Shown: positions 2,223-26,992 of the stretch, piece by piece
Position numbering within the stretch: the stretch's first letter is position 1
How the letters are laid out: the number at the start of each line of letters is the position of its first letter
Assembly (NCBI GenBank): GCA_963676835.2
Contig: CAXXFF010000002.1
Location: forward strand, 768,001-832,000
Source: Marispirochaeta sp.
GTDB lineage: Bacteria; Spirochaetota; Spirochaetia; JC444; Marispirochaetaceae
Direction: 5' to 3'
DNA length: 64,000 nt
Translations under genes and position numbers: made by a program
The notes under the pieces: model-generated
Seen by the model: only the letters and a program-made list of their open reading frames with translations
What the model was told of the DNA's origin: nothing
Database searches by the model: none

Positions 2223-5200
2223 ATGGTAGAGCAGTCGGAGATAATCGGTCTTGATATTGGTTCAGTAACAGTCAGTCTTGTAGGTGTTGATGCCGACGGC
2301 GCTGTGTCGGCCCGGGAATCCCTGGTTCACGGGGGGTATGTCAAGAAAGCTGTGGATAGCCTGCTTGCCGGCTGGAGCGGCCGAATCGCGCTTACCGGAC
2401 TTCCTGCTGTGGATCTTGTTCCAGATCTCAAAGTAAATTCTCAAGTAGCTCTTATCCGGGGAGTACGGCAGCTGATGCCGGAAGTAAGAACCCTTGTCTA
2501 TGCCGGTGGTGAACGGTTCGGTCTTCTTGGTTTTGATGAAGACGGAAGCTATACCCATTTTAAGGGCAATCCGGCTTGTGCCGCAGGAACCGGGAGCTTT
2601 CTTGACCAGCAGGCTGAGCGGCTGGGACTGAAGAACAGTGCGGAACTGGCAGATCTGGCGGAAGGTAATAAGGGTGAAATCCCGCGCATAGCTACACGAT
2701 GTGCTGTTTTTGCCAAAACCGATCTTATTCACGCCCAACAGGAGGGCTGGAGTCTTGAGGCTATTTGTGACGGTCTCTGCAATGGTCTTGCGAGAAACCT
2801 TGCGGATACCCTGTTTGACCGTGAAATAGCCGTTCCTGCGGTTTTTGCCGGCGGCCTTGCCCTCAACCGGGCTGTGATGAGGCATCTGGGAGATATCTGC
2901 AATATTCATTTTATTACCGATGCAAATATGTCCATCAGCTTTGCGGCTTACGGAGCGGCACTGGAGCTTCGGGATAATTTGTCTGCACCATCCTTTACGC
3001 CGGTTTCTTCCGGGGCTTCTGTTGAGAAGGAATCCGGGCGTACTGGTCAGGTTTATCCTCCTTTGCTGCTCCAGCTGAGCGAGTATCCGGATTTTGATGA
3101 GCATCAAAGCTATACCTTTGAACCACCTGCGGGGACCGGGACCGGTCTTGTAGAAGTGGATGTTTACCGTGAAGGCGAAGACGGTATAGACCTCTACCTC
3201 GGTGTGGATGTGGGGTCAACTTCAACAAAAGCTGCTTTGATAGATACCAGCAGACAGGTTCTTGCAGGATTCTATACCCGTACAGCTGGCCGCCCAGTAG
3301 AGGCTTTGAAAGGTATTCTTGCTGCCATTGAGGATCTTTCCCGGTGCAGCGGCAGCGAATACAACATACTCGGCAGCGCAACCACCGGTTCCGGCAGGAA
3401 GCTTGCCGGGGCAATCCTGGGAGCAGATACCATACTCGATGAGATCAGTGCCCACGCTTTAGCAGCCTGTGAAATAGACAGTGAAGTGGATACCATTATA
3501 GAGATCGGCGGTCAGGATGCGAAGTTTACCACCTTGAAGCACGGCCGGGTTACCTCTTCGATAATGAACAATGTATGTGCCGCCGGTACAGGCAGTTTTC
3601 TTGAAGAACAGGGGCAGAAGCTTGGCGTAGCCATAACCGAGTATGCCGCAAGGACCGAAGGTATAAGGGCCCCTCTTGCCAGTGACCGCTGTACCGTATT
3701 CATGCAGAGGGATTTGAATCATCTGCTGGCTGAGGGTTGGACGGTGGATGAAGTTCTGGCATCGGCGCTGCATGCGGTGCGGGAAAACTACCTGCAGAAA
3801 GTGGCTGTTGAAAACAGAATAGGCAGAAAAGTATTTTTTCAGGGGGCCACGGCCAAAATCCGGACCCTGGTTGCCGCCTTTGAACAGAAGCTCAATCAGC
3901 CTGTGCTGGTTTCTCCCGTATGCCACCTTACCGGTGCTTTGGGGGCGGCTCTGGAGCTGGCTGACCGCAGGGTTATAACAGACCGGTTTCGCGGTCTTGA
4001 TATCTGGCGCGGGGAGATCCCGGTAAAAACCGAAGTGTGTGAGCTCTGTACCAACCACTGCAAGTTGACGGTGGTAAAAGCCGGCGGTGAGACCGCCGCC
4101 TTCGGTTTTCTCTGCGGCAGGGATTATGAGGATAAAAAGTATGTAAAGGAGAAGAACAGCGGTTTCAGTCTTGAGGGGGCGGTAAAAAAAGCCGCCGGCA
4201 GAGATCCTTCTCCGGCAGATCCGGTTGAGCATATTACCCTGGGACTTCCATCAGGCCTTTATCTCAGGGAAGATATGGTTTACTGGAAGCATTTTTTTGC
4301 TGAACTGGGAATTCCGCTTGTTAGCGGAGACACCCTTTCCGGGACGCTCCAGGAGGGACGGAGGTTTACCCGCTCGGAATTTTGTGCCCCTCTTACGGAA
4401 CTCCACGGACAGGTTCATATGCTGGCGGAGCAGTGTGATCATGTATTTCTCCCGGTCTACACGGAAACCAGCAGGGATAAAAAAGATCTCAGAAAATTCT
4501 GTTACTACAGCCAGTTTGCCCCTGCCATGCTCGCCCAGCAGTTTCCCCGGGGAAAGATCCTTACCCCGGTGGTCAAGTCTCTCAGCCTGCCCTTTAAATC
4601 TCAGGTTGAACTGTACCGGATGTTAAAAAATCTCGGCAGCAGCAGACATTACACTTTCCTTCAGATAAACCGGGCTATGGAAATCGCCCAAACAGCGGCA
4701 GAACGGTATAAAGAATCACTTTTACAGCGTTTTGCAGAAGAACAGGAGAAGCCAAGTGAAGATATTCAGGTTGTTCTCCTCGGCAGGCCCTATACTGTGC
4801 TTTCCCCTCATATGAATAAAGGAATCCCCGCGATTTTCAGTCGCCTGGGAATTCCCGCATTTTTTCAGGATATGGTTCCTTCGGATGCTGATGCAGCAGC
4901 TGCGGTGAAACCCCTCATAGAGGAGATCCACTGGAATTATGCTTCGGGAATACTTGAGACAACAGAAAGCATTGTCCGCAAGTCCGGTTTTTATCCCGTT
5001 TTTGTAACATCCTTTAAATGTTCACCAGACAGTTATCTGCGCACCTATTTCCGGCAGCTCATGGAAGCGCATGACAAGCCCTATCTCGTTCTGGAACTTG
5101 ATGAACACGGGTCCAGCGTGGGCTATGAAACCCGTATTGAAGCTGCGGTGAGGGCCTTCAGAAATCATCATCATACCGAAAAGCAATCTCAAAGGGAATC

Positions 5201-6464
5201 AATACCCTTCGGCTTCAGAATGCAGGGAAAGATTGATATGAAAGGTATCCTGCCTGACCTGTCCAGAGACCTGAGGGGAAAACCTCTGCTCCTGCCTAAC
5301 TGGGACAGCTATACCATGCCCCTGATTGCGGCAAATCTGCGGCACGAAGGGATTGATGCCCGGGTGCTCGACGAGAGCCAGGATTCCATCCGCCGGGGAC
5401 TGAGCCGTAATGACGGGCAGTGTATTCCCATGAATGCCGTGGCGGAGGAAGCAGTTGCCTATGTGCGGCGGCATAAGCTTGATCCGGCAAAAACCCTGCT
5501 CTGGATGATGAAGTCAGATCTTGCCTGTAATATTGCTATGTATCCACATCATATCCGTACCCTCTTCAGAAGTTATCCGGGAATGGAAGAGCTTGGTGTC
5601 TTCAGTGGGGATATTACCTTCGGGGAGGTTTCCGTTGCAGCCGCGGTAAATACCTACTTCGCCTTTCTTTTCGGCGGGCTCCTGCGCAGAATCGGCTGCA
5701 GGCTTCGTCCCTATGAACAGAACAAAGGGGAGACGGATAGAATTCTTAATGAAAGCCTGGTGCAACTGGAGGAGGCCTTCCTCGGGCAACGGAAAAAGAA
5801 GGAGGTTGTTGAAGAGATTATCCGGAAAGTGGAAGCTATCCGTATACTGCCCGGGGAACGCCGGCAGGTGGCCATCTTCGGGGATATCTATGTCCGTGAT
5901 AACGATGTTTTCAACCAGGGGCTCATCTCATTTATCGAAGAGCATGGCGGTGAAGTTATTACTACCCCCTACAGTCAGTATGCCAAGATGATTGCCGAGG
6001 CCTATTTCCGCCGCTGGTTTGCAGAATCCCGCTTTACTACCCTGATTGCCTTCCGTACCCTGCTTACTGCAGTTGAACTGCTGGAACGGAGCTATCGTAC
6101 CCTCTTTGAGGGCCTGCTCCCTGTTATTGATGAACGCTATGACCAGGACCCTGAAGAGATCCTCAGCCACTTTGACATGCGCATCGAGCAATCCGGGGAA
6201 TCCATGGATAACATACTGAAGGTCTGGTATATAAAAGAGCATTACCCGGATATCTCCCTTTTTGTGCAGACAAGTCCCGGGTTCTGCTGCGCAGGGCTGA
6301 TAACGGAAGCCATGGCTGACAGGATTGAAGAGGTGACGGGTGTTCCGGTGGTTTGTCTCACCTATGATGGAACCGGGGGGAATCCCAATGAAACGCTGGT
6401 TCCCTACCTGCGATTTCCCCGTAAAGAGGAGGATGGTGCGGGAGTTGATCTGCAGTACGGCTGA
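2223..6464 (+). CDS. Multidomain acyl-CoA dehydratase activase (two BadF/BcrA ASKHA ATPase domains plus DUF2229-like region)
   Basis: GLDIGSVT and GVDVGSTSTK, two CAAGTGSFL motifs, RCAVFA and RCTVFM, IEIGGQDAK, CELCTNHC. Confidence 0.9.
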   Translation: MVEQSEIIGLDIGSVTVSLVGVDADGAVSARESLVHGGYVKKAVDSLLAGWSGRIALTGLPAVDLVPDLKVNSQVALIRGVRQLMPEVRTLVYAGGERFGLLGFDEDGSYTHFKGNPACAAGTGSFLDQQAERLGLKNSAELADLAEGNKGEIPRIATRCAVFAKTDLIHAQQEGWSLEAICDGLCNGLARNLADTLFDREIAVPAVFAGGLALNRAVMRHLGDICNIHFITDANMSISFAAYGAALELRDNLSAPSFTPVSSGASVEKESGRTGQVYPPLLLQLSEYPDFDEHQSYTFEPPAGTGTGLVEVDVYREGEDGIDLYLGVDVGSTSTKAALIDTSRQVLAGFYTRTAGRPVEALKGILAAIEDLSRCSGSEYNILGSATTGSGRKLAGAILGADTILDEISAHALAACEIDSEVDTIIEIGGQDAKFTTLKHGRVTSSIMNNVCAAGTGSFLEEQGQKLGVAITEYAARTEGIRAPLASDRCTVFMQRDLNHLLAEGWTVDEVLASALHAVRENYLQKVAVENRIGRKVFFQGATAKIRTLVAAFEQKLNQPVLVSPVCHLTGALGAALELADRRVITDRFRGLDIWRGEIPVKTEVCELCTNHCKLTVVKAGGETAAFGFLCGRDYEDKKYVKEKNSGFSLEGAVKKAAGRDPSPADPVEHITLGLPSGLYLREDMVYWKHFFAELGIPLVSGDTLSGTLQEGRRFTRSEFCAPLTELHGQVHMLAEQCDHVFLPVYTETSRDKKDLRKFCYYSQFAPAMLAQQFPRGKILTPVVKSLSLPFKSQVELYRMLKNLGSSRHYTFLQINRAMEIAQTAAERYKESLLQRFAEEQEKPSEDIQVVLLGRPYTVLSPHMNKGIPAIFSRLGIPAFFQDMVPSDADAAAAVKPLIEEIHWNYASGILETTESIVRKSGFYPVFVTSFKCSPDSYLRTYFRQLMEAHDKPYLVLELDEHGSSVGYETRIEAAVRAFRNHHHTEKQSQRESIPFGFRMQGKIDMKGILPDLSRDLRGKPLLLPNWDSYTMPLIAANLRHEGIDARVLDESQDSIRRGLSRNDGQCIPMNAVAEEAVAYVRRHKLDPAKTLLWMMKSDLACNIAMYPHHIRTLFRSYPGMEELGVFSGDITFGEVSVAAAVNTYFAFLFGGLLRRIGCRLRPYEQNKGETDRILNESLVQLEEAFLGQRKKKEVVEEIIRKVEAIRILPGERRQVAIFGDIYVRDNDVFNQGLISFIEEHGGEVITTPYSQYAKMIAEAYFRRWFAESRFTTLIAFRTLLTAVELLERSYRTLFEGLLPVIDERYDQDPEEILSHFDMRIEQSGESMDNILKVWYIKEHYPDISLFVQTSPGFCCAGLITEAMADRIEEVTGVPVVCLTYDGTGGNPNETLVPYLRFPRKEEDGAGVDLQYG

Positions 6465-6550
6465 AATTTTTGGAAGTGCCCCGGTATTAAGCCTTGCGTT
6501 TGCCGTACCGGCGAACTACTCTTAATGCAAAGAATAGTGCGGGTGAATTT

Positions 6551-7477: not shown

Positions 7478-7486
7478 TGCAGACAC

Positions 7487-7514
7487 AAAAAAACCGGGCG
7501 GTGAAGCCCGGTTT
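7487..7514. terminator. Intrinsic terminator between convergent genes, U-tract on the minus strand
   Basis: AAACCGGGC-ggtgaa-GCCCGGTTT preceded by an A run. Confidence 0.8.
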
Positions 7515-7537
7515 GTATTGTTTACGAATCATAGACG

Positions 7538-9882: not shown

Positions 9883-10098
9883 CAGGAAGCTCCTTGTTCC
9901 GGTCTTTGGGATGTGTAGAAACAGTTTATACAAAGAAAAAATTGTTTCAAGAGAGTATTATACAAAAGGAAAGAGAATTTTTGTACCGGTCTCACCCCGG
10001 GGACTGTAATTTAGAACGTTCCAAAATAGGGGATTGTATTAATTTTACTTGTATATCAGTTAACTGTCTGATTCTCTACAGCTGTTCAACTTTGAAGA

Positions 10099-10157
10099 GG
10101 GACGGAGGTTCAGGTTTTCAGGTTTCCGGTTATGTTCTAAAGAGGGACGGAGGTTTT
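10099..10157 (+). repeat. Two intergenic copies of AGAGGGACGGAGGTT; degenerate third copy near 10194
   Basis: GGGACGGAGG at 10099 and 10144, identical to the copies next to the HUH nuclease gene. Confidence 0.85.
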
Positions 10158-10453: not shown

Positions 10454-10475
10454 CAGAAGAAAAAATCTCTTCTGT

Positions 10476-11005: not shown

Positions 11006-12979
11006 ATGCAAATTGATTCTTTACAGGCTGTGGCGAAGAGTGTGAGAGCACTTTCCATTGACGGTGTGCAGGCGGCAAACTCGGGGCATCCCGGGCTTCC
11101 CATGGGAGCGGCTGAGCTGGGTGCGCTTTTATACGGCGAGGTACTGAAGCATAACCCCGCGGATTCCGGATGGGTTGACCGGGACCGGTTTGTGCTTTCA
11201 GCCGGGCACGGCTCCATGTTTCTTTACAGTCTGCTGCATCTGTCCGGGTACAAGCTGAGCCTGGATGAGCTGAAGAAGTTCCGTCAGCTGGGTTCGAAAA
11301 CCCCCGGACATCCGGAGCACGGCTGGACTGACGGTGTTGAGACCTCCACCGGGCCGCTGGGGGCGGGACTGACCAATGCAGTTGGTATGGCCATTGCCGA
11401 AACAATGCTTGCGGCAAAGTTCAATACCGCTGAGCACACCATAATTGACCATTACACCTATGCCCTGGCCGGTGACGGCTGCATGATGGAGGGAGTTACC
11501 TCCGAAGCGGCATCTCTTGCGGGTCATCTGGGGCTTGAGAAGCTGATAGTTTTCTACGATTCCAACCGGATCAGTATCGAAGGCAATACGGAGATTACCT
11601 TTACCGAGAGTGTGGCAGACCGATATAAGGCTTACGGCTGGCAGGTTCTTGAAGGTGATATGTATGATATTGCAGGAACGGCCGGGTTGGTGGCAAAAGC
11701 AAAAGCAGGAACAGAGAGGGACGGAGGAAAGCCGACGCTGATTATTCTGAAGTCAATAATCGGAAAAGGATCGCCAAATATGGAAGGTTCCCATGATGTT
11801 CATGGTGCTCCCCTGGGGACGGAGGAAAGAAAACTGACCCGCAAGAACCTGGGAATCCCCGAAAATGAGGACTTTTACATAGATCCCAAGGCTTCTGAGT
11901 TCTTTGCTGGTAAAAAACCCGGCTGGCAGGCCGCACAGGACGCCTGGAATGAGGGTTTCAAGGCCTGGGCGGCTGCGAATCCTGCGCTTAAAAAGGAGTG
12001 GGATCTCTGGATGGCGGAAAAGTCGGATGCAGGACTGGTTTCCTGGCCTGAATACAAGGTGGGTGATTCTGTGGCTACCCGGAGTGCATCAGGTTCTGCC
12101 ATTAAGGCTATCGGTCAGGGATTAAGCAATTTTGTGGGTGGATCCGCGGATCTTGAGCCTTCAAATAAGACTGCCCTCGGATTTGGCGACTATCAGAAGG
12201 ATAATCGCGGAGGCCGCACCCTCAGATTTGGTGTTCGTGAGCATGCCATGGGCGGAATCGCCAACGGTATTGCCCTCCACGGGGGCTTGAGAACCTTTTG
12301 CGCGACTTTTCTGGTGTTCGCCGACTATATGCGGCCTCCCATGAGACTTGCAAGCCTGATGAAGCTGCCGGTTACCTACGTTCTGACCCATGATTCCATC
12401 TATGTTGGAGAAGACGGACCAACACATCAGCCGGTTGAGCATGTTGAATCCTTAAGGATTATTCCCGGAATGACGGTATTCCGCCCCGGTGATGCTCAGG
12501 AGACCAACTGCGCATATGAAATTGCCCTGGAGAAGACCGATGGACCGGTTGCCCTCGCGCTGACTCGTCAGAACCTTGCGGTATACGAGAAGGCCGATAA
12601 AGACTGGATGAATACCATGCGCAAAGGTGCTTATGTGGTGAAGGATACCGATGGGACTCCGGATGTTGTGGTTGTTGCAACGGGGTCGGAGGTTAATCTT
12701 GCGCTTTCTGCGGCAGAAAAGAGCGGAAAGAAGGTGAAGATTGTCTCCATGCCTTCCAGGGAGACTTTCCAGCAGCAGGATAAGGCTTTTAAAGCCTCTA
12801 TTTTGCCTGCAGGTGTGAAGACTGTGGTTGCTGAGGCTGGAATCGGCGCGGGATGGGAGGGTATTGCCTCTGATCCGGAGCTTATTCTTTGCATGAAAAG
12901 CTTTGGCGAGTCCGGTCCTGCCGGGGATGTTGCGAAGCACTTCGGGTTTATCGTGGAGAATCTTGCTTCCATGCTGTAG
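11006..12979 (+). CDS. tkt: Transketolase
   Basis: [55 protein letters not shown]. Confidence 0.98.
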
Positions 12980-13006
12980 GGGTTGAAACTGTAAACAAAG
13001 ATAATG

Positions 13007-13190
13007 GGGACGGAGGTTTTGGTATTTTAAACCTTCGTTTATTTTCCAGCGTTTGTGCCCTCTGCTGTACAGCAGGGGGCTTTTTGTAGTTAAGGGGAGA
13101 AGGTCAGTGGACGATCTGTCGCGGGAATTATGCAGCAAAAGCAGGGGATAAGTTTGTAGATACTGGCTGATAAACAGGGACGGAGGTTTT
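13007..13190 (+). repeat. Two GGGACGGAGGTTTT copies directly upstream of the HUH nuclease gene
   Basis: Copies at 13007 and 13177. The first is followed by a decayed inverted partner AAACCTTCGT near 13029-13038. Confidence 0.85.
13057..13085 (+). terminator. tkt intrinsic terminator
   Basis: GCCCTCTGCTGTACAGCAGGGGGC followed by TTTTT. Confidence 0.8.
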
Positions 13191-13248
13191 TCTCAAGAAA
13201 TTATTCTATACCTTGAAGCAAACCGGGAAATTCATCGTTCTTGTTTAT

Positions 13249-13722
13249 ATGAGAAAGATAAGGGAAAAGCAGCCCGGGGCTGTGTATCATGTTGTGGCAA
13301 AGACTAACAGAAGTGAATTTATGCTGGAATCAAAACTGGTGAAGCAGATGTTTCTTGTGCTGCTCAAGACTGCACTGAAGAAATATCCGTGCCAGCTTAA
13401 TCATTTCTGTATAATGAGTAACCATGTGCATATTCTGATTGAACCCCTGGATGGAACTGATCTCTCGCAGATGATGCAGTGGCTGTTAAGTGTTTTCGCT
13501 ATCCGGTTCAACAGGCTATATGGTCTTAAAGGACATGTATGGTACGACCGGTTTAAAAGCACAATAGTAAAATCCCTTGAGCATTTTAAAAACAGCTACC
13601 GGTATATTTCCGAAAACCCGGTAAAAGCAGGGATGTGTACTTCCCCGGAGGAGTATGAATTTTCCGGATTACACTGGGTTGATCATCTCCTGCGGTCCGT
13701 AAAAAGGGTCATATTTGAATGA
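13249..13722 (+). mobile_element. HUH Y1 transposase-like protein (RAYT/TnpA-REP-related, IS200 superfamily)
   Basis: GAVYHV, CIMSNHVHIL (HUH), GHVWYDRFKS, YISENPVKAG (catalytic Tyr helix). No tnpB next to it. Confidence 0.92.
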
Positions 13723-13795: not shown

Positions 13796-14404
13796 ATGAA
13801 CTGCAATCCTCAGGATCTCCATGTACATACAATTTTCTCGGTCGGTGATGGTGCCGTTGTTCCCCAGATGTCCATAGCCTTTGTTGCGTCCATGGAACAT
13901 GCGGAAGTGCGCGGTATCAGTGATCATTTTGAATATCTCAGAGGTGAAATCTTCGAAGAGTACTCTGCTGAAGTTCGAAAATACGGTTTTTATCTGGGGT
14001 GCGAAGTAAATGATTCTTCCGATGCCCTGGAAGCGGTAGAATACCCTTATGATTACTATATATATCACTGCCGGGATCGGGAGAGTGAATATCGGGGGTC
14101 GGAGGTTCTTCTTTCCACCGGAAAACCGGTAATTATCAGCCACCCCATGGCTATGGGGGCGGATCTTTCCCGTGTTCCAACCGACTGCTATATTGAAATC
14201 AACAACCGCTATGTCTGGAGAGACAATTACCGGGCCTATTTTTCTCCCTGGCTCGATACCTTCCGCTTTGTTTTCGGTTCTGACGCTCATCAGCCGAACT
14301 GGTTGAACCAGACAGTCGCCCGGAAAATTGGAGCGGAGATGGGTGTTAAGGAAAGTATTCTATTTCCTGTCAATTCCGGGGTCTGCGGTTGTTCTGGTAA
14401 ATAA
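13796..14404 (+). CDS. Small PHP-domain phosphoesterase
   Basis: DLHVHT, ISDH, GCE, SHP, EINN, GSDAH motifs. Confidence 0.85.
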   Translation: MNCNPQDLHVHTIFSVGDGAVVPQMSIAFVASMEHAEVRGISDHFEYLRGEIFEEYSAEVRKYGFYLGCEVNDSSDALEAVEYPYDYYIYHCRDRESEYRGSEVLLSTGKPVIISHPMAMGADLSRVPTDCYIEINNRYVWRDNYRAYFSPWLDTFRFVFGSDAHQPNWLNQTVARKIGAEMGVKESILFPVNSGVCGCSGK

Positions 14405-14407
14405 AGA

Positions 14408-14420
14408 GGGACGGAGGTTT
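14408..14420 (+). repeat. GGGACGGAGGTTT copy just after the PHP gene stop
   Basis: Exact motif 3 bp after TAA. Confidence 0.8.
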
Positions 14421-14476
14421 CTTTTAGGCTGCCCCCGTTCAAAGCTCCCATTCGAGCTTAACCACACAATCCTCTG

Positions 14477-15241
14477 TTATAAATCCACCGAATCAATAGA
14501 ACTCTGCAGGGCTTGAATGATGTATTTACGGATCTTGGTTTTTTCAGAATTGGTTGTTTTCGGTGTGAAGATTATCACATAAATTTTAGGCTTTGCCTCT
14601 CTGAAGCCTAAAACCACACCCGAAACGCTGACCAGGCTGCTTCTCAGGCGTAGCTGAATCCCCTCAAGCAGGGTGTTTTTCTGCAGTTTCGGATCGGCGT
14701 TATCAAAGGTTACCGCCATTCCAATGGAACTTACGTCGATAATATTTCCCGGAAGTACTGTATCTGAAATTCTTACATTGAAGATAGCATTCTTGTCATC
14801 GCTGCTATTGACCCGTACATACTTCCTCCGTCCCCGTGCTTCACTTGCTTCCAGGGCGGTGAGGATTATTTTTGTGCTCTGCGCCAATCCGAGCTTAAGC
14901 TGGATAAATCCGCACTGTACGCCGATATCCATCAGGTATTTCTGCTTAAGCTCTGCATCATTATTGTATGAGAGGATCCCGATACGAACATCCTTAAGTG
15001 CGGCGTTGCCGATAATGCCTTTGATATATTCTTCCCACTCCTCTTCGCTCAGTTTGTCATCGATGTTAATAAAAAGGATAGAGTCGGGATATTTCTCAAG
15101 AATTCTCAGTGCACGTCTATGATCTTTGAGAAGGGTAACTTCGTATTCCTGGGTTATAAGGGTATATAAGAGTTCTTCCTGTACAACACTGTGAGGATAC
15201 AGGAGGAATACTTTTTTTCCGGCTATTTCAGCGTTTGCCAT
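14477..15241 (-). CDS. PilZ-domain protein
   Basis: RRKYVR (RxxxR) and DVSSIG (DxSxxG). Confidence 0.85.
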   Translation of the reverse strand: MANAEIAGKKVFLLYPHSVVQEELLYTLITQEYEVTLLKDHRRALRILEKYPDSILFINIDDKLSEEEWEEYIKGIIGNAALKDVRIGILSYNNDAELKQKYLMDIGVQCGFIQLKLGLAQSTKIILTALEASEARGRRKYVRVNSSDDKNAIFNVRISDTVLPGNIIDVSSIGMAVTFDNADPKLQKNTLLEGIQLRLRSSLVSVSGVVLGFREAKPKIYVIIFTPKTTNSEKTKIRKYIIQALQSSIDSVDL

Positions 15242-18597: not shown

Positions 18598-19176
18598 TCA
18601 GATGCTGCTTTCAACAGCAGCTTGTACGTCTGAAATAATCCTCCGTCCCCATGGGACCACGGTTTTTTCTTCATTCTGCAGATATCCGGTAATTTCTTTG
18701 ATCGGTATTTCCCTGCGCGTTTTACGATTAAGTCGGTAGAAGGCGGTATTCATTCCCTGGATGGTCCGGTAGCTTTCAAACCAGTCTTCCATGACCAGTA
18801 CAGAGGAGGTAAAGGTGAAATGTCCAGAAACAGTGTCTCCAAGAGCCTCAAGAACCGAGTAGGTCGTGTGCTTAAAAACCTTGAAAGGTTCAGCTGAGAA
18901 TTCATGCCATCGGGAGGCCAGTACAAAGTCGATAATAAGATCTGCCATAACTCCGGGGTAGGGGAAGCCTCTGGAGGAGATATGGGATCTCAGGCTTTTG
19001 AAATCGCTGTTGGAATCTGTTGTACGGTCAATCAGGTGATGCAGCTCTATTCCTGTCTGGACAGCTTCGGGCAAACTCAGGGTATCTATGTGGCGGATCG
19101 AGTCCCCTGCAAGGTTTCCGACCAGAATTCCGGCGTTATCTTTGGGAGAGAGAAAGGCATGGGCAAGATAATTCAC
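18598..19176 (-). CDS. acpH: ACP phosphodiesterase-like protein
   Basis: MNYLAHAFLS, GNLAGD, GIELHHLIDRTTD. Confidence 0.8.
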   Translation of the reverse strand: MNYLAHAFLSPKDNAGILVGNLAGDSIRHIDTLSLPEAVQTGIELHHLIDRTTDSNSDFKSLRSHISSRGFPYPGVMADLIIDFVLASRWHEFSAEPFKVFKHTTYSVLEALGDTVSGHFTFTSSVLVMEDWFESYRTIQGMNTAFYRLNRKTRREIPIKEITGYLQNEEKTVVPWGRRIISDVQAAVESSI

Positions 19177-19307: not shown

Positions 19308-19517
19308 TTACAGAAAAGTCCGGGCTCTTTCTGCCTGTGATGGAAAAAGATCTTCCGGAACAGCACTGCTGCCTTTTGCTTTAAAGACCATGTACCTGGC
19401 GCAATTGGTATTATCCCCGAGACAATATTTATTTTTCATTATCTCCGAAAGGGCTGGCATCTTCTGCATCCTGTCATTAAAGAACGGACATTTTGGCAGG
19501 CATTCACATTCAGCCAT
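19308..19517 (-). CDS. Small Cys-rich hypothetical protein, 69 aa
   Basis: AGGAGG RBS; Cx5CPFF..YC..CARY..VPEDLFP pattern shared with the ORF at 57428. Confidence 0.75.
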   Translation of the reverse strand: MAECECLPKCPFFNDRMQKMPALSEIMKNKYCLGDNTNCARYMVFKAKGSSAVPEDLFPSQAERARTFL

Positions 19518-19583
19518 ATAAATTCCTCCTGATTTTTGATTACTGTTATCAGTATAGGCAATTGACAGAAGGTTCGCAAATTT

Positions 19584-20900: not shown

Positions 20901-20957
20901 TGACTCCTTTTTATGCTGGCTGTTATTTTACCATGGGATGCGGCTTAATCTGCCGGA

Positions 20958-23900
20958 TTAATTCAGAGATTCCGGGCTGTCCAGTAGCTGAAAGATATTT
21001 TCTATACTCTCCCGGCTGAAATCAGCTGTGGATTCTCTGGCAATATTGTCCCTGAGATAGATCAGATATGTTTTAACCGGCTTGCCGTGTATTGCGGTCA
21101 GTGCTTTGCGGTAAAGATACATCTGCATATCATATTCCCCGGGTGTAACAGCTCGATTTGTCTTGAAATCCAGACAGATAATTTTGTCATCGAGAAGACA
21201 ATAAAGATCAATAATGCCGTCCACTGCACGTATTGCAGAACCGGTTTTCAGTCCCAGGGTGAAGGGCTTTTCCGCATACACCTGAGTCCCATCAGGAATC
21301 AGGGCCTTCCTCTCTGGTGATTCCCAGAAGTCAGCGGCTATTGATCCGGCCATGTGGGAAATTCGCTGCTGATTCTCACTGCTGTGTTCGGGAAAAAGAT
21401 TCGGCAGAGCAGATGGATCTTCCCCGAGAGTCAACAGCTCCAGGGCTCTATGCACCATGGTGCCGAAACGTTCTGCACCTTCCTGTATAAGATTGTCTAC
21501 TGCCAGTTTGGGCAGGGATATACTCTCCTTATGGTCCAGACTCTGGGCTGCCGCAGCATTGAGCCTGGTGGCGCTGACGGCATCCTTCCCGGAAGGCATG
21601 GCAAAATCCTCCGTCCCCAGAAAGCCGAGATAATTGCCTGCAGTCCTGTTTCGTTTCCTGCTTCCCCGCTTTTTCAGCATTGACAGGGTTGCAGGAGTAA
21701 AAGGCACAATTCGGGGAGAATCCTCCGTCCCCAGTCCTTTGCGTATCAGATCCAGCAGGCTTGGAATCTTGCCTTTTTTCCCCGGTTCATAGCCAAGCAT
21801 AATCAGGTGCTGTTCGGCTCGGGTAAAGGCCACATAGAGCAGACGTTTCAGTTCCGCCGTTTCCTGCAGGTCCGCGGCGGCTCTGCTCTTTTCGTAGAAG
21901 GGGTTTTTTCTGCTCTTTTTTCCTTGTTCATCTGTCCTGCTCAGATTGATGGTCAAGCCGAACTCACTGTCGATGTAGTAGGGCGCGCGGCCGTCCATGT
22001 TGGTGCTCCCCTGACCGGTTGAACCGGTGAGGACAATGGGAAACTCCAGCCCTTTGGATTTATGGATGGTCATGATGCGGATGCCGCCGCCGCCGGAACT
22101 GAGGGTTTCTATTTCATCGAGTTTTTTATATTCCCCCATGTTGTCCCGCAGGAAATCGATAAAAACCGCTGCGGATTCTCCTCTATTCCAGCTGGCATCA
22201 GCCAGGGTGACCAGGTAGTCATAAAACTCCAGATACCCATGGTAGGCGGGATTTTTCAGCAGGTTATAGCGGTATCCGCAGTCGAACCAGAGGTAGCGCA
22301 GCAGCTGACGGTGAGGAACAGTGTCCATCATGTCCTGAAGGGTCCGATAAATTTCCCGGCCACTACAGTATTTTTTATATTCATCTCCGGGAAGATCGAG
22401 TTCTGTTAAACTGAAAAGCCCCCTGTTTTCCAGCAGATCCTTCAGCAGATATTCATCTTCAAGATTGACAAAGAAGGAGCGGAGAAATACGGCGTAGGCT
22501 GTTCTGTCCTCGGGGTAGAGGGCCAGCTGCAGGGCGGCGTAGATATCATTGGCCGGAGCTTCGTAAAAGAGCGTGCGGATATTTTCCGTTGTGTAGGGGA
22601 TTTCAAAGCGCCGAAAGATCCGCTCATAAATAATCTGGTTACCCGTAGTTCTCAGAAGCAGGGCAAAATCGTCATAAGCTGGAGGGCGGATGGTTCCGTC
22701 CCGGTCGCAGATGTTCAAGCCTCTGCCGGCAACAGCTTCAGTAATAATGCGGGCGGCTTCATATGCTTCCGATTCAGCAGCCTGGAGTTCATCCTCTTCC
22801 GGGATTTCTGAAGCTTCAAGAATATGCAGCCGAATCTCCGGTTCCGGAACCCCGGGCTGCTTCTCCCGGCCTTTGAGCGGGCGGAACTCGGCTTCAAAGT
22901 CATTGCTTTCACCGCCCTCTTCCGGGGTAAACACTGCAGGGAAGAAGCTGTTGAAAAAGTCGATTAACAGAGGATTACTGCGGTAGTTTGTGGCAAGTTC
23001 CACCGGGGTATTGCCCAGGTCTGCTGCAAGCTGCTTGAACACCCGTACATCCGCGCCCCGGAAGCGGTAGATGGACTGTTTCTCGTCGCCTACGAAAAAA
23101 AGCTTGCCCGGGTCCAGTTCGGAAGGTGCAGGAATCCCTTCTTTAAGGCGATCAGATTTTTCTGCCAGCAGATAGAGCAGCTCTTTCTGTTCTTCGTTGT
23201 TATCCTGAAACTCATCGATCATTATGTAGCGGAACTGCTCTTTATAGAATTTCCTCAGTTCAAGGTTCTCCCGCAGCAGGGTTACCGCCATGGCGACAAC
23301 ATCCGAGAAGGAGACCATTCCCTGCTGGCGCTTGATGCTCAGCCATCCAGTGGCGAATGTGTCCAACAGTTCCATTACCCCGGCGAAAAGCTCCTTTTGC
23401 ATAAGCATTACAAGGTAGCCCTGTGCTTTTTCCGCCAGGGGAGTAAGTTGTTCGTGAATATCCTTTAAAAGAATAAGGTCGGGATTGGTACTGTCTGATC
23501 GCGGTTTCCGGTAGGGGGCGCTTTGGGTAAGGCTGTTCAGTGCCTCCCAGCTTTCCTCCTCAATCAGTTCTTCCGTATCGGGCCAGCCATCCGCGGCAGC
23601 GGCAGCCTTATCCAGGGTTGCGGATTTCTTTGCAGCCCCTGCAGCGATGCGTCCCATCTGCTGGTAAAGACCGTCGAGCTGTGTAAAAAGTGTTCTTATT
23701 TCATTTAGGCAGTGCCGCTGCTGTTTTTCAAACGCCCCGGCATGATCCGGCACGCCGGTAATCAGCAGGTGATACTCTGCGTAGGCGGCAAAAAGATTCT
23801 TCCACACACTGTCAAATCCATTAGCCTGGATAAGCTGGTGGAGGGCGCTGTTGCCGTTATGGCGCAGTATAAAATCCAGAGCATAGCTTTCCGCGTTGCT

Positions 23901-24275
23901 TGAGAGCCGAGTCTGATCAATGGAAAAGGATGAGGGCAGACCGAACCTTACGGCGTCATTACGGGCAATCCTGGCACAGAAACTGTCCAGGGTGGAGATC
24001 TGGGCCTGATCGAAAAGGGGCAGCTGTTTTCTTACTGCCGGATTATCAGAATTTTCCACCAGCAGTTTGTGGATGCGGCTGTACATCTCCGCCGCAGCTT
24101 TTCTTGTAAAGGTCAGGGTCAGAATGGAGGGGATCTCCACACCTTCCTGAACCAGCGCAAGGTAGCGGCCGGCAAGCACCGTGGTTTTCCCCGAACCGGC
24201 TCCGGCGGCAACCACCGTGTTGGATCGTACATTAACAGCTGTTTTCTGATCATCATCAAAGGGAGGCTGGGGCAT
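20958..24275 (-). CDS. addA: AddA-like UvrD helicase/nuclease
   Basis: AGAGSGKT, LTFTRKAA, IDEFQD, VGDEKQSIYRFRGAD, NYRS, TIHKSKGLE, YVAFTRA, C-terminal GIIDL..DFKT. Confidence 0.9.
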   Translation of the reverse strand: MPQPPFDDDQKTAVNVRSNTVVAAGAGSGKTTVLAGRYLALVQEGVEIPSILTLTFTRKAAAEMYSRIHKLLVENSDNPAVRKQLPLFDQAQISTLDSFCARIARNDAVRFGLPSSFSIDQTRLSSNAESYALDFILRHNGNSALHQLIQANGFDSVWKNLFAAYAEYHLLITGVPDHAGAFEKQQRHCLNEIRTLFTQLDGLYQQMGRIAAGAAKKSATLDKAAAAADGWPDTEELIEEESWEALNSLTQSAPYRKPRSDSTNPDLILLKDIHEQLTPLAEKAQGYLVMLMQKELFAGVMELLDTFATGWLSIKRQQGMVSFSDVVAMAVTLLRENLELRKFYKEQFRYIMIDEFQDNNEEQKELLYLLAEKSDRLKEGIPAPSELDPGKLFFVGDEKQSIYRFRGADVRVFKQLAADLGNTPVELATNYRSNPLLIDFFNSFFPAVFTPEEGGESNDFEAEFRPLKGREKQPGVPEPEIRLHILEASEIPEEDELQAAESEAYEAARIITEAVAGRGLNICDRDGTIRPPAYDDFALLLRTTGNQIIYERIFRRFEIPYTTENIRTLFYEAPANDIYAALQLALYPEDRTAYAVFLRSFFVNLEDEYLLKDLLENRGLFSLTELDLPGDEYKKYCSGREIYRTLQDMMDTVPHRQLLRYLWFDCGYRYNLLKNPAYHGYLEFYDYLVTLADASWNRGESAAVFIDFLRDNMGEYKKLDEIETLSSGGGGIRIMTIHKSKGLEFPIVLTGSTGQGSTNMDGRAPYYIDSEFGLTINLSRTDEQGKKSRKNPFYEKSRAAADLQETAELKRLLYVAFTRAEQHLIMLGYEPGKKGKIPSLLDLIRKGLGTEDSPRIVPFTPATLSMLKKRGSRKRNRTAGNYLGFLGTEDFAMPSGKDAVSATRLNAAAAQSLDHKESISLPKLAVDNLIQEGAERFGTMVHRALELLTLGEDPSALPNLFPEHSSENQQRISHMAGSIAADFWESPERKALIPDGTQVYAEKPFTLGLKTGSAIRAVDGIIDLYCLLDDKIICLDFKTNRAVTPGEYDMQMYLYRKALTAIHGKPVKTYLIYLRDNIARESTADFSRESIENIFQLLDSPESLN

Positions 24276-26992
24276 CAGCGTTCTCCTCGGATTACATATT
24301 TACCCCGGCAGAGGCTGCGCAGACTGCAGGAGCCGCACTCATCGGGATTGCTGCGGTAGTCTCCCCGGTCCATTTTCTCTTTCATGGTTAGGATATAATG
24401 ACGGGTAAGGGCGGTCAATTCGGTAAATTCATCTTCGTTCAGGATGACCTTCTTTCTCGGCGGCAGAGGGAGGGGGACGGAGGAGCTGACCAGGGTGAAC
24501 TCCCCTTTCGCTGCGGAATAATAGGCAGTTATACAGTCATCTCCGCGGTTGCTGATACCGCAGGCATGGAGCAGCAGGGCATAAAAAGGTATCTGCATGC
24601 TTACCGGAGGAGCTCCCGGTGAGGGTTTCATGTCTCCTGCTTTGAGGTTGAGATTCTTTTTGTAGTCCACAATCAGAATTTCTCCTGCCGGCCCCCGGGA
24701 AACCCTGTCGACCCTTCCTCCTATGGCAATCCCCTCTATGGATGATTTCAGCTTCTTTTCCGTCTCCATTGTTCTGAAGCCGTCGAAGAGCGCTGCCTCT
24801 GCAGCCGGATACAGAAGGAGCTGCTGGAGCATCTGATCAAGGCTGGCCTGCCATGCCGGTTTGATCGGCAGTGGGCGCAGGGAGAGCTTTTCTGCGGCAT
24901 CTGAGAAAATCTGTGCAATTCGTTTGCTGTATTCTTCAATTTCAGCCGAGAGGAACGGTTTTCCTCCCAGGGAATCGCTGAAAGCTTCCAGCACGGTGTG
25001 CAGAAAGATTCCCTCCAGCCGGTGATCCCGTACCATGGGCGTGTATTCTTCCCTGTTCAGTCCAAGGATGCGCTGAAACAGAAAAGCGAAGGGGCAGCTG
25101 TAGAATCCATCCAGGTCCGTGGGGCTCAGGCTTCCTCCGTCCCCGGTATCGCTGAACTGCTGTATAAGTCCCTCAGTCAGGCCTGCATGAGAAACAGTGG
25201 AATCAAGCAGATCCATATTCCTCAGGCGGCCGCCGGTATCCCGGAAGCGGGTATACCCCTGTCTGCGCCATCCGGCGGGCGGGTACTCCGGTTCCGCTGC
25301 TTCCGTTTCTGCAAACCAGGCGCGTTCTTCCTGTTCGGGGTCTGCTGCAGGCCATTCTGTGTCTGCATTATGTATTCTTCCGGACTCGACAAAGTAGCCG
25401 GGTGCAAGTCCCGGGCCGGCGAATCCCCGGGCAGCACAGCTTATAATGGTCTCTTTTCCCGATTCGGCATACAGCTTCAGATAGGCAGAACTTACATCCT
25501 CATCCTTGATTCCGCACTCAAGTCTCTGTGCCTCATTCAGGGGAAATCCCCTGTCCCAGCTGACCCGGCTCGAATCCTGGGTAAGAAAGGGTATAAAGTG
25601 GAAGGCCGGAGCAATTCCTGCTGTGGCCCGGTAGGGGTAGACCGATATCCCCCGCACCGGCTGCTGCTCAACATAGGCTGCATCTTCAAGGCTCTGCAGC
25701 CAGATCTGAAAAGGTCGGGCCGGGATAAGTTCCGGATATACTTCAGCAGTTTCGGCAAAATCATTCAGTTCTTCCAGGGCCCGCTGAAAGGCTTTCAGCT
25801 GATTAGGTGCCCGTTTCAGCCAAAGGTCGGTATCGAGGAAAGTGGCTGTAAAGGCCTGTATGGCTTTGGCTGTTTCGCCGAAGTCCGGCGCTGAAAGGAT
25901 TCTCCGGAAGCTTCCTTCCAGACGAAGGTAGAGATCCAGGGAAGCTTTTTTCTCCCCGCTTTTCAGTGCTTCTGCCCATCCGTGGCTGCGGCCTTTCTCT
26001 CTCCAGTTTCTTAAAACATAACAATCCACTCCGTCCTGTATCAGTTGCCGGAGTTCCTGTTCCTTCTTCCAGGGAATTCCCCGGTTAAGGAGAAGATTTT
26101 TCATGGATTCCATGGAAAAGGAGCCGGAAAGGGCTTCAGATATCAGCTGAAAAAGCCGCACGGATGCATATTCATTCAACTTTTTTCCGGAATGAAAACG
26201 CAGGGGTATCCCGTAATGGTGGGCATACTCATCAAGTACAGGTCTGTTTTTTTCCAGCTCCGGACAGGTGACAATTATCTCATCCGGGGAGGTTCCCTGT
26301 GAGAGAAGGCTTCTGATGCGGGCAAAGAGGGCCGAGGCTTCTTCCCGCTGTGTTGCGTACATGACAATCCGGGGACCCGTACTGTCCGGCTTTAATAATT
26401 CTTCCCCGGCTGAGATTACCCGGATATTCCGGTGTTTCTTGAGCATCTCCCGGTACTGGGGATAATCCTCGAGGAGCTCCGGAAAGCAGAGAACATAGGT
26501 CTCCTGTATTTCCCCGGGAGAAGGGCTGAGCATGGAGGGTTCATACAGGTCCTTCTCATTGAGAAAATCCCCGTACCGTTCTGCAAGGGATCGGATGTCC
26601 GCTGCCAGAGGCCATGGTCTTGTCTGCACTTCGGGAAGAAGGCTGTGAAGTCTTGGAAGGATGCGGACGAGCTCATTCACCGATCCTGCAGGGCTTTCTC
26701 CGTCTACCGGTAGAAGGTGAACCAGGAACGGTTTTTTCTGCTGCTCCCGGGCAGTCTTAACCGCAAAGAGCCTGCGGACCTTTCCGTTGACCGGTTTCCG
26801 GCTCTCCCTCAGCCCGAAGGCCTGTTCCTTGAAGCGGTCCCAGGAGATAAATCTCTCTCCGGAAACTGCTTCGGCGTATCCTCCGTTTACAGCGGTATGA
26901 CGCCAGAAGCGTGCGCTGATTTCAGAAGGAAATACCAGATGTACCGAGGTGTCACCCAGAAGGGCGGTAAGGGATGTAAATCTTTCCTGCAT
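24275..26992 (-). CDS. addB: AddB-like PD-(D/E)XK nuclease subunit; start uncertain
   Basis: SPT..YSCPF, GRVDRV..VDYK, QIPFY, CGSCSLRSLC Fe-S staple; TGATG coupling to addA. Confidence 0.8.
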   Translation of the reverse strand: MQERFTSLTALLGDTSVHLVFPSEISARFWRHTAVNGGYAEAVSGERFISWDRFKEQAFGLRESRKPVNGKVRRLFAVKTAREQQKKPFLVHLLPVDGESPAGSVNELVRILPRLHSLLPEVQTRPWPLAADIRSLAERYGDFLNEKDLYEPSMLSPSPGEIQETYVLCFPELLEDYPQYREMLKKHRNIRVISAGEELLKPDSTGPRIVMYATQREEASALFARIRSLLSQGTSPDEIIVTCPELEKNRPVLDEYAHHYGIPLRFHSGKKLNEYASVRLFQLISEALSGSFSMESMKNLLLNRGIPWKKEQELRQLIQDGVDCYVLRNWREKGRSHGWAEALKSGEKKASLDLYLRLEGSFRRILSAPDFGETAKAIQAFTATFLDTDLWLKRAPNQLKAFQRALEELNDFAETAEVYPELIPARPFQIWLQSLEDAAYVEQQPVRGISVYPYRATAGIAPAFHFIPFLTQDSSRVSWDRGFPLNEAQRLECGIKDEDVSSAYLKLYAESGKETIISCAARGFAGPGLAPGYFVESGRIHNADTEWPAADPEQEERAWFAETEAAEPEYPPAGWRRQGYTRFRDTGGRLRNMDLLDSTVSHAGLTEGLIQQFSDTGDGGSLSPTDLDGFYSCPFAFLFQRILGLNREEYTPMVRDHRLEGIFLHTVLEAFSDSLGGKPFLSAEIEEYSKRIAQIFSDAAEKLSLRPLPIKPAWQASLDQMLQQLLLYPAAEAALFDGFRTMETEKKLKSSIEGIAIGGRVDRVSRGPAGEILIVDYKKNLNLKAGDMKPSPGAPPVSMQIPFYALLLHACGISNRGDDCITAYYSAAKGEFTLVSSSVPLPLPPRKKVILNEDEFTELTALTRHYILTMKEKMDRGDYRSNPDECGSCSLRSLCRGKYVIRGER

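What the first reader, a model, noticed from the sequence alone, without database searches (positions are those of the whole stretch)
4355..25143. Local cloud of GGGACGGAGG motifs centred on a stand-alone HUH/Y1 nuclease and extending into host genes
Seen: 14 exact copies of the non-palindromic 10-mer. Plus strand: 4355, 10099, 10144, 11718, 11816, 13007, 13177, 14408, 24474. Minus strand: 14825, 18640, 21608, 21722, 25134. All lie within about 12 kb of the nuclease (13249-13722), are densest next to it, and I saw none from 25.2 to 64 kb. Uniform-composition expectation is about 0.12 copies in the window (128000/4^10). Nine copies are inside genes (activase, tkt x2, PilZ, acpH, addA x2, addB x2), read as GRR, GTE, DGG or antisense, so a shared protein constraint cannot explain them. 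All 7 left-hand copies are plus strand and 5 of 7 right-hand copies are minus strand, i.e. pointing inward, although this is confounded with gene strand. Known: RAYT/TnpA-REP enzymes spread palindromic intergenic REPs, and some HUH subfamilies have short G-rich subterminal repeats. Inference: this enzyme writes or fixes its short recognition motif into nearby DNA in cis, including coding sequence, acting as a local sequence-conversion system rather than an ordinary IS.
Basis: partly seen in the sequence, partly recalled or inferred. Interest (0 to 1): 0.88.

Follow-up and report, generated by a model that had tools for sequence, protein, structure and literature searches.

The report
RAYT-type nuclease ringed by its 10-base word
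A single-copy DNA-cutting enzyme gene of the REP-transposase kind in this spirochaete is surrounded, for about 10 kb on each side and even inside housekeeping genes, by exact copies of one 10-base word, and the same pairing recurs in related bacteria.

Summary
The whole 4.43 Mb genome holds only 24, so the word is local, not Chi- or uptake-like.

The centre is a single-copy Y1/HUH gene (13249-13722) that passes NCBIfam's REP-associated tyrosine transposase model.

The pairing is general:
- A sister species keeps 15 of its 25 copies in the syntenic 21.6 kb.
- Eighty loci with homologous Y1 genes, almost all titled as spirochaete MAGs, hold 533 copies against 6 of the reversed control.
- The usual layout is one copy 50-120 nt upstream of the gene and an inverted copy downstream.
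- A GG/GC variant of the last base follows the Y1 clades.
- All 21 relatives without the gene show no excess.

Copies inside genes arose by in-frame substitution or small indels from G-rich near-matches. Orthologs in genomes without the gene lack them.

This is a new variant of the REP/RAYT (TIRYT-like) partnership: a short non-palindromic word in a local halo that reaches into genes. That the enzyme itself writes the word is plausible but not shown; selection for extra binding sites is the main rival. This scan noted the same kind of system before, in another spirochaete.

The parts
13249..13722 (+). Y1/HUH nuclease gene, 157 aa, RAYT (TnpA-REP) class, single copy in the genome
   Evidence: Pfam Y1_Tnp E 2.3e-15. 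NCBIfam NF047646 REP_Tyr_transpos 82 bits, cutoff 80. Best solved structure 4ER8 TnpA-REP, E 6.6e-6. The NH.H and YI..NP motifs are kept in at least 90% of 81 homologs. One copy in G000.
13177..13186 (+). proximal upstream copy of the word, 72 nt before the start codon (the canonical position)
   Evidence: 73 of 81 loci have a core copy within 300 nt upstream, mostly 50-120 nt
13213..13220 (+). TTGAAGCA box between the proximal copy and the start codon, possibly the -35 of the Y1 promoter
   Evidence: sequence; similar TGAAGCA/TTGAATCA boxes in many homologous loci; function inferred
13007..13016 (+). intergenic copy just after the tkt stop
   Evidence: a counterpart in the same unalignable spacer of G002
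14408..14417 (+). intergenic copy 4 nt after the PHP-domain ORF
14825..14834 (-). first inverted copy downstream of Y1, inside the PilZ gene (sense strand)
   Evidence: exact in G002; outgroups have GGGGCGGAGA, GGGTCGGAGG, GGGAAGGAGA
10099..10108 (+). intergenic copy, first of a direct pair 45 nt apart
10144..10153 (+). intergenic copy, second of the pair
11718..11727 (+). copy in tkt, at a 12-nt in-frame insertion relative to four outgroups
11816..11825 (+). copy in tkt made by substitutions only; it turns an Asp that all four outgroups share into Glu
4355..4364 (+). copy in the activase gene (substitutions, no indel)
   Evidence: exact in G002
18640..18649 (-). copy in acpH; G002 has GGGACGGAGC here
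21608..21617 (-). copy in addA
   Evidence: exact in G002
21722..21731 (-). copy in addA at a 12-nt in-frame deletion relative to the outgroups
   Evidence: exact in G002
24474..24483 (+). copy in addB (antisense), next to a 9-nt in-frame insertion
   Evidence: exact in G002
25134..25143 (-). copy in addB, in an indel-rich stretch
   Evidence: exact in G002
14096..14105 (+). one-mismatch copy GGGTCGGAGG in the PHP ORF; the orthologous G002 site is exact
12683..12692 (+). one-mismatch copy GGGTCGGAGG in tkt

Best explanation
This is a REPtron-like pair. A domesticated, single-copy RAYT-class Y1/HUH nuclease goes with its own cognate DNA word, (R)GGGACGGAGG(W), which is a short linear word rather than a REP hairpin. 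The basic unit is the gene with one copy 50-120 nt upstream and an inverted copy a few hundred nt downstream. Around this unit the word multiplies in direct intergenic arrays and as solitary copies in neighbouring genes, forming a halo of roughly 10 to 60 kb.

Shown: the pairing, the local distribution, the origin of genic copies from near-matches by in-frame changes, and their retention across species.

Inferred: the enzyme reads the word directly and acts mainly near its own gene, as transposases often do. Its nicking and strand-joining at exact and near-exact sites biases repair or strand exchange so that near-matches nearby are turned into exact copies and then kept.

The confidence given (0.55) is for the whole statement, including the inferred enzyme-driven origin of the halo. 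For the pairing alone I would say about 0.9.
For: Locality:
- 15 of 24 genome copies lie in 21 kb.
- 15 of 25 lie in the syntenic 21.6 kb of G002.
- 34 of 51 lie in 68 kb around the Y1 gene of the complete genome G031.
- Smaller clouds or bare flanking pairs surround the Y1 genes of G032, G033 and G034.

Pairing:
- 533 exact copies against 6 of the reversed control in 1.105 Mb around 80 homologs.
- Density is 2.4 per kb on the gene's strand in the 500 nt upstream, and 0.7-0.8 per kb on the opposite strand in the first kb downstream.
- Five diverged paralogs in one genome share nothing in their flanks except the word.
- No neighbouring gene is conserved.
- 9 of 10 relatives with the gene have more of the word than of the control; 0 of 21 without it do.
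- The GG and GC variants follow the Y1 clades (4 changes on the tree; in the per-group tables none of 500 label shuffles was as low). They also follow them inside one MAG, where L050, L079 and L097 are GC and L098 is GG.

A DNA-level force:
- 10 coding copies against 0.21 under synonymous shuffles.
- Exact against one-mismatch copies 15:2, compared with 9:204 elsewhere.
- 8 of 15 copies are exactly conserved at aligned G002 positions, against 11.7% of all 10-mers (p = 1e-4).
- A conserved Asp in tkt was changed to Glu.
- Outgroup orthologs carry near-matches or unrelated sequence at every coding site.

Catalytic motifs are intact across 81 homologs.
Against: No direct evidence of enzymatic writing:
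- The runs that hold this DNA are kept only as contigs, and no joint listed lies at a copy of the word.
- Gains and losses since the G000-G002 split are steps of 1-2 nt (6658, 18640, 14096, 22693). Ordinary mutation plus selection explains these equally well.
- No known HUH chemistry converts a near-match in place without a length change.

Some dense clusters were fetched without any Y1 gene in the DNA held: G004:C514 (whole 33 kb contig), G004:C2, G004:C505, G023:C21, G023:C7 and G025:C432. These are fragmented MAGs, and G004 is 12% contaminated, so linkage to a Y1 gene cannot be judged.

G022 has the gene but only 1 copy of the word against 2 of the control, and G009's excess is weak (21 against 14).
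Confidence: 0.55

Rival explanations
1. The halo is a set of selected binding sites made by ordinary point mutation. The Y1 protein binds the word, the proximal copy acts as an operator next to its promoter, and extra copies near the gene are kept because they titrate or hold the freshly made nuclease, or because they build a local nucleoprotein structure. The enzyme writes nothing.
For: Recent gains and losses are steps of 1-2 nt. Sites sit in variable, weakly constrained protein stretches. They are retained across species beyond the neutral expectation. The proximal copy has a fixed position just upstream of a TTGAAGCA box. Flank preferences (purine before in 93 of 95, A/T after in 82 of 95) look like a 12-nt recognition site rather than a copied donor sequence.
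Against: At any time only about one one-mismatch site is expected by chance in 21 kb (0.047 per kb). Fifteen exact sites nevertheless arose after the split from G001/G003/G005, several of them five or more changes away from the outgroup sequence. The very sharp 15:2 ratio of exact to near copies is unlike ordinary operator sets. Four of the 10 coding sites coincide with in-frame indels. The advantage of any one site would have to be tiny.
Confidence: 0.3
2. The word marks a chromosome-organising or segregation site cluster, like parS sites clustered near parB, and the Y1 protein has been recruited as an architectural protein.
For: Exact sites cluster within tens of kb of the gene for their presumed binder, many inside genes, and are conserved between species. 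The locus lies about 150 kb from the GC-skew switch on contig C2.
Against: One genome carries at least five diverged paralogs scattered over 3.8 Mb, four with a bare flanking pair of copies and one (near 2.72 Mb) with a small cloud as well. The word is not palindromic. The catalytic HUH and Tyr residues are strictly kept. Most relatives sampled lack the system altogether (21 of 31).
Confidence: 0.05
3. The cloud marks a patch of DNA imported from a donor in which the word is abundant genome-wide, or it is an assembly artefact.
For: Several MAGs show whole contigs rich in the word without a Y1 gene.
Against: The genes are syntenic and 76-82% identical with the sister species and 67-81% with the rest of the genus. 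The word arose in place by substitution in these orthologs. None of the 35 genomes examined shows an even genome-wide distribution. The same sites exist in independent assemblies. Contigs of a second study cover parts of the region at about 97% identity.
Confidence: 0.03

Closest known systems
REPtrons: RAYT / TnpA-REP genes with their REP or REPIN families (E. coli TnpA-REP, PDB 4ER8; Pseudomonas REPIN-RAYT). Passages read in PMC6006769, PMC5581495 and PMC8266576.
   Same: Class-2 Y1/HUH protein with the Y---NP signature, about 160 aa. Single or few diverged copies per genome. Inherited vertically. Flanked by its own repeats in inverted orientation, and the repeats also form clusters.
   Different: The repeat is a 10-12 nt non-palindromic word with no GTAG head and no hairpin: 60-nt windows centred on it fold at -7.2 against -6.4 kcal/mol for controls. 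It is local rather than genome-wide. Two thirds of the copies in this window are inside genes and were made by substitution or small indels, not by insertion of an element.
TIRYT / TIRtrons (Di Nocera et al. 2013, PMC3733652, passages read; Quentin et al. 2018 subclass 2.1, PMC6006769, passages read)
   Same: RAYT-like genes flanked by short inverted repeats instead of REP hairpins. Many of those repeats share a G-rich consensus, GGGGWSAS. Some repeat families are moderately abundant and occur as dimers or clusters.
   Different: The commonest extended form here, GGGGACGG, departs from GGGGWSAS at the seventh base. The protein is short and lacks the C-terminal helix-turn-helix extension described for subclass 2.1. 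The passages read do not mention a halo inside genes or conservation of sites between species.
Marinomonas sp. MWYL1 REPtrons Ma and Mb (Corneloup et al. 2021, PMC8266576, passage read)
   Same: The repeats are reported to be concentrated close to their tnpA-REP genes, which the authors read as multiplication in the vicinity of the gene.
   Different: Those repeats are classical GTAG-tagged palindromes in intergenic DNA, and the authors explain the concentration as recent arrival. Here the halo predates a species split at about 80% DNA identity.
DNA uptake sequences and Chi sites (from general knowledge, not from a call)
   Same: Exact short words that sit in genes in all reading frames, with a very high ratio of exact to near-exact copies. 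For uptake sequences this is usually ascribed to molecular drive rather than protein constraint.
   Different: Those words are spread evenly over the whole genome. This one is confined to the neighbourhood of one gene.

Membership tests
RAYT / TnpA-REP (class 2 Y1 HUH) | HUH motif and a catalytic Tyr in a Y---NP context | tested here: met
   HVH and YISENP are in the translation. NH.H and YI..NP are kept in at least 90% of 81 homologs. The signature itself is taken from PMC6006769 (passage read).
RAYT / TnpA-REP (class 2 Y1 HUH) | Passes the curated family model and resembles the solved TnpA-REP | tested here: met
   NF047646 scores 82 bits against a cutoff of 80, only just above it. 4ER8 is the best PDB match, E 6.6e-6.
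RAYT / TnpA-REP (class 2 Y1 HUH) | Low copy number, with paralogs diverged rather than identical | tested here: met
   One copy in G000. Five paralogs in one genome are diverged, with unalignable flanks.
RAYT / TnpA-REP (class 2 Y1 HUH) | Gene flanked by its cognate repeats in inverted orientation | tested here: met
   73 of 81 loci have a copy within 300 nt upstream on the gene's strand, and 55 of 81 have an inverted copy within 1500 nt downstream. Density profile.
RAYT / TnpA-REP (class 2 Y1 HUH) | Repeats are palindromic REP hairpins with a GTAG head | tested here: not met
   The word is not self-complementary. 540 windows centred on it fold hardly better than 518 controls. No GTAG lies next to it.
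RAYT / TnpA-REP (class 2 Y1 HUH) | Repeats dispersed genome-wide in extragenic space | tested here: not met
   15 of 24 copies lie in 21 kb. 10 of those 15 are inside genes.
TIRYT / TIRtron (subclass 2.1) | Flanked by terminal inverted repeats without a hairpin | tested here: met
TIRYT / TIRtron (subclass 2.1) | The inverted repeat carries GGGGWSAS | tested here: not met
   GGGGACGGAG occurs 520 times in the 80 loci. Its first eight bases, GGGGACGG, miss the consensus at position 7, so this is a near match only.
TIRYT / TIRtron (subclass 2.1) | Long protein with a C-terminal helix-turn-helix (DnaA_C-like) extension | tested here: not met
   The protein is 157 aa. Pfam finds only Y1_Tnp at residues 24-134 of the 169-aa ORF.
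IS200/IS605 insertion sequence | Several near-identical copies, subterminal hairpins, often tnpB, and passes the IS200 model | tested here: not met
   Single copy. NF033573 scores 26.8 bits against a cutoff of 55. No conserved neighbour gene. No hairpins.
Chi-like or uptake-like genomic word | Even over-representation across the genome | tested here: not met
   Outside the cloud there are 9 copies in 4.4 Mb, about what base composition predicts.
parS/ParB-type centromere cluster | Palindromic site bound by a ParB-family protein near the origin, one cluster per replicon | tested here: not met
   The word is not palindromic. Several scattered units exist in one genome. Binding was not tested.

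The most novel reading that the evidence does not exclude
The Y1 nuclease actively rewrites DNA near its own gene. By nicking and rejoining at exact and near-exact sites it converts near-matches within tens of kb into its exact recognition word, in frame and inside essential genes such as tkt and addAB. That would be a natural, cis-acting, short-patch sequence-writing activity, distinct from transposition.
Probability: 0.3. Interest if true: 0.9.

Novelty: new variant of a known kind. Interest (0 to 1): 0.7.

Why it matters
How RAYT enzymes spread their repeats is still unknown. The papers read here say that the dissemination mechanisms are poorly understood (PMC8266576, abstract).

This family offers an unusually clean test case:
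- The target is a 10-base word with no hairpin.
- It has two natural variants (GG and GC) tied to enzyme clades.
- New copies can be dated by comparing orthologous housekeeping genes.

If the enzyme makes the copies, it is a local DNA-rewriting activity that overrides protein conservation; a conserved Asp in transketolase was changed. If the copies are selected binding sites, this is a rare case of a transposase-derived protein shaping the coding sequence of its neighbours. Either way, short exact words inside genes can be footprints of a neighbouring nuclease gene.

Tried and rejected
1. Replication-terminus trap or Ter-like sites, suggested by the convergent genes and the inward orientation. 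GC skew is positive across the whole window and changes sign about 150 kb away, at C2 ~600-620 kb. The polarity is also not general.

2. My first guess that the organism was a Firmicute (because of addAB) was wrong. The titled relatives are almost all spirochaete MAGs.

3. A sense-strand or RNA-level motif. With crude ORF calls, 69 copies were sense, 39 antisense and 4 intergenic in other genomes. That is a weak bias, expected for a purine-rich word.

4. Imported patch or assembly artefact: rejected.

5. A hidden REP hairpin: none found.

6. A conserved partner gene. None: no real neighbour is shared by more than 5 of 80 loci, and those 5 are close kin. The PHP-domain ORF next to the gene is shared only with G002.

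7. A fixed-length insertion footprint. Removing the word from tkt site 11718 does not restore the outgroup sequence, and sites 11816, 4355 and 14825 show no length change.

8. Reads. No RNA holder was listed, and all four runs are kept as contigs. Run X1 reproduces the stretch without differences but may be the source sample. The joints listed have short sides (21-60 letters) and none is at a copy of the word. In X2, about 97% alike, differences are listed at 18634, 18636 and 18637 and none inside 18640-18649, but only 40 of 351 differences were printed.

9. The word itself turned up only in plant and animal papers among the 20 listed of 90 holding it. 'Spirochaet' does not occur in PMC6006769 or PMC5581495. 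The terms searched in PMC3333891 gave nothing.

11. No structure or complex was predicted; the sequence evidence was judged enough for membership.
Full report
**Observation.** The pattern search finds 15 exact copies of GGGACGGAGG in the window, all between 4355 and 25143, against 0.13 expected. The whole assembly (4.43 Mb in 4 contigs; the window is C2:768001-832000) holds only 24 copies. Fifteen of them are in this stretch, so the remaining 9 are about what composition predicts.

The word is very sharp. In the cloud there are 15 exact copies and 2 one-mismatch copies; elsewhere there are 9 exact and 204 one-mismatch copies. The base before the word is always a purine and the base after it is always A or T. 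The same holds in other genomes: 93 of 95 and 82 of 95.

Ten copies are in genes and five are intergenic. With the protein sequences held fixed, synonymous-codon shuffles give 0.21 coding copies against 10 observed, and none of 1000 shuffles reaches 10. The force therefore acts on DNA, not on protein.

**The centre.** The ORF at 13249-13722 is a Y1/HUH protein of 157 aa:
- Pfam Y1_Tnp, E 2.3e-15.
- NCBIfam 'REP-associated tyrosine transposase', 82 bits against a cutoff of 80, whereas the IS200 model fails.
- The best solved relative is E. coli TnpA-REP, 4ER8.

It carries HVH and YISENP, the class-2 signature given in PMC6006769, and these residues are kept in at least 90% of 81 homologs. It is single copy in the genome.

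**Is the cloud tied to the gene?**

Sister species. The closest relative, G002, is syntenic at 76-82% DNA identity. It has 25 copies genome-wide, 15 of them in the orthologous 21.6 kb. Eight of the window's 15 copies are exactly conserved at aligned positions, against 11.7% of all 10-mers in the same alignment (p = 1e-4). Most of the intergenic copies have positional counterparts in spacers that cannot be aligned.

Homologous loci. A scan of genome contigs with the protein matched 178 stretches, of which 118 encode a relative. The best 80 were kept with up to 10 kb on each side, and almost all are titled as spirochaete MAGs. In their 1.105 Mb the word occurs 533 times and its reversed control 6 times. 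Six of the 80 loci have no exact copy, and five of these six carry the GC variant, in the upstream flank or elsewhere in the locus. A de novo count ranks this word and its one-base shift as the two commonest 10-mers in those loci.

Layout. The usual arrangement is one copy on the gene's strand 50-120 nt before the start codon (73 of 81 loci have one within 300 nt) and an inverted copy downstream (55 of 81 within 1500 nt). In one complete genome five diverged paralogs have flanks that share nothing but the word. No neighbouring gene is conserved across loci.

Presence and absence. Among 31 genomes of the class, 10 carry the gene. Nine of these have more of the word than of the control, whereas none of the 21 without the gene does.

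Other complete or near-complete genomes. G031 has 34 of its 51 copies in 68 kb around its Y1 gene, with one copy 72 nt upstream of it. G033 and G034 show smaller clouds, and G032 mostly bare flanking pairs.

Variants. Loci differ in the last base of the word. The GG and GC variants follow the Y1 tree (4 changes on the tree; in the per-group tables none of 500 label shuffles was as low). They also co-occur in one MAG, each next to the Y1 gene of the matching clade. Kinship inflates the tree statistic; the within-genome case does not suffer from that.

**Evidence that cuts the other way.** Six dense clusters in fragmented MAGs were fetched without a Y1 gene in the DNA held (G004:C514, C2, C505; G023:C21, C7; G025:C432). 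G022 has the gene but no excess of the word, and G009's excess is weak.

**How the genic copies arose.** I aligned tkt, the activase, the kinase, PilZ, acpH, addA and addB with orthologs from same-genus genomes. G001, G003 and G005 have no Y1 gene, and in G004 it is on another contig. None of the 10 coding sites carries the word in those genomes.
- Some sites differ from the outgroups by substitutions only. At tkt 11816, G001 has GGGACGGATG, and the change turned an Asp shared by all four outgroups into Glu. At PilZ 14825 the outgroups have GGGGCGGAGA, GGGTCGGAGG and GGGAAGGAGA. Activase 4355 is also substitution only.
- Four sites coincide with in-frame indels: tkt 11718 (+12 nt), addA 21722 (-12 nt), addB 24474 (+9 nt) and addB 25134.
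- Differences between G000 and G002 are steps of 1-2 nt (6658, 18640, 14096, 22693) or lie in indel-rich stretches.

So the copies are not insertions of a fixed element. They are near-matches in weakly constrained stretches that were made exact and then kept.

**Other anatomy.**
- In other loci the word forms direct intergenic arrays with spacings of 19-70 nt. The window has one such pair, at 10099 and 10144.
- There is no hairpin: 540 windows of 60 nt centred on the word fold at -7.2 kcal/mol against -6.4 for 518 nearby controls.
- The inward strand pattern seen in the window is not general.
- Clouds tend to be denser in GC-richer genomes. I did not test this, but near-matches to a G-rich word should be commoner there.

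**Mechanism.**

Shown: a cognate pairing of this RAYT-class gene with a short linear word; a local halo; origin of the copies in place; and retention across species.

Inferred: the protein reads the word directly and works mainly near its own gene.

Whether it also creates the copies is open. Points in favour of enzyme-driven conversion:
- By chance only about one one-mismatch site is present in 21 kb at any time, yet 15 exact sites arose within the genus.
- Several sites are five or more changes from the outgroup sequence.
- The ratio of exact to near-exact copies is extreme.
- Indels coincide with four of the coding sites.

Points in favour of ordinary mutation plus selection for binding sites:
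- Recent changes are small steps.
- The proximal copy sits in a fixed, operator-like position upstream of a TTGAAGCA box.
- The flank preferences look like recognition, not copying.

The public runs holding this DNA are kept only as contigs and show no joints at the word, so they do not decide.

**Comparison with what is known.** The closest systems are as follows.
- REPtrons (RAYT/TnpA-REP with REP or REPIN).
- TIRtrons in particular, where RAYT-like genes are flanked by short inverted repeats, many fitting GGGGWSAS, some forming moderately abundant families in dimers or clusters (PMC3733652 and PMC6006769, passages read).
- Marinomonas REPtrons, whose REPs are reported to be concentrated near their genes (PMC8266576, passage read).

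This system differs in five ways: a non-palindromic 10-12 nt word; a short protein without the helix-turn-helix tail; copies inside genes made without insertion of an element; site conservation across a species split; and a halo that holds essentially all of the genome's excess copies.

A full-text search for the word listed only plant and animal papers among the 20 shown of 90 holding it. I saw only passages of the cited papers and no supplements, so a mention there cannot be excluded.

This scan's own earlier notes describe the same kind of system in another spirochaete (e1-1405231) and similar ones in a myxobacterium and elsewhere. I reached the result before reading them and treat them as leads only.

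**Verdict.** 'Writing' remains an inference. This is a new variant of a known kind, of real interest to people working on RAYTs and repeats, because it gives a simple, datable substrate for the unsolved question of how these enzymes spread their repeats.

Noticed in passing
window 13213-13220, and homologous loci L034, L040, L050, L053, L058 and others: A TTGAAGCA-like box lies 4-40 nt after the proximal copy of the word and about 35-45 nt before the Y1 start codon in many loci. It may be the -35 of the gene's promoter, which would make the proximal copy an operator-like site.
   Followed up: partly
window 11816-11825 (tkt): Making the word changed an Asp that all four outgroup transketolases share (G-x-D-E) into Glu in G000 and G002. 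Here a DNA-level force overrode a conserved residue.
   Followed up: partly
G000 contig C2, about 600-620 kb (outside the window): GC skew changes sign from negative to positive, so a replication origin probably lies about 150 kb to the left of the window. The whole window is on the plus-skew arm although half of its genes are on the minus strand.
   Followed up: no
G000:C2:100310-100522 (-) and G000:C3:481122-481313 (+): Two faint Y1-like matches (E 0.004 and 0.12), each with a TGA inside. They may be decayed relatives or chance hits.
   Followed up: no
G004 contigs C2 and C47: Five copies of the word have identical spacing on the two contigs. The contigs therefore look like duplicates in a MAG listed with 12% contamination, and the count of 85 copies for G004 is inflated.
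   Followed up: no
L035 and L083: Two loci with this Y1 gene and its word carry non-spirochaete titles (Parasporobacterium sp. and Candidatus Margulisiibacteriota MAGs). This is either horizontal transfer or mis-binned contigs.
   Followed up: no
window 13796-14404: The ORF next to the Y1 gene gives only a weak, partial PHP-domain match (residues 7-89, below the Pfam cutoff). It holds a one-mismatch copy of the word at 14096 that is exact in G002. It is shared with G002 but not with other Y1 loci.
   Followed up: partly
L062:5468-5515, L096 upstream of its Y1 gene, L093:12640-12880 and 14460-14679: Tight head-to-tail arrays of the word with spacers of 19-70 nt, some inside GC-rich, repeat-like coding or intergenic DNA. 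A casual reader could mistake them for CRISPR-like arrays.
   Followed up: partly
window 14326-14633: Contigs in runs X1 and X4 replace this spacer between the PHP ORF and PilZ, which holds the copy at 14408, with about 202 other letters. A related organism in the samples therefore has a different spacer here.
   Followed up: no
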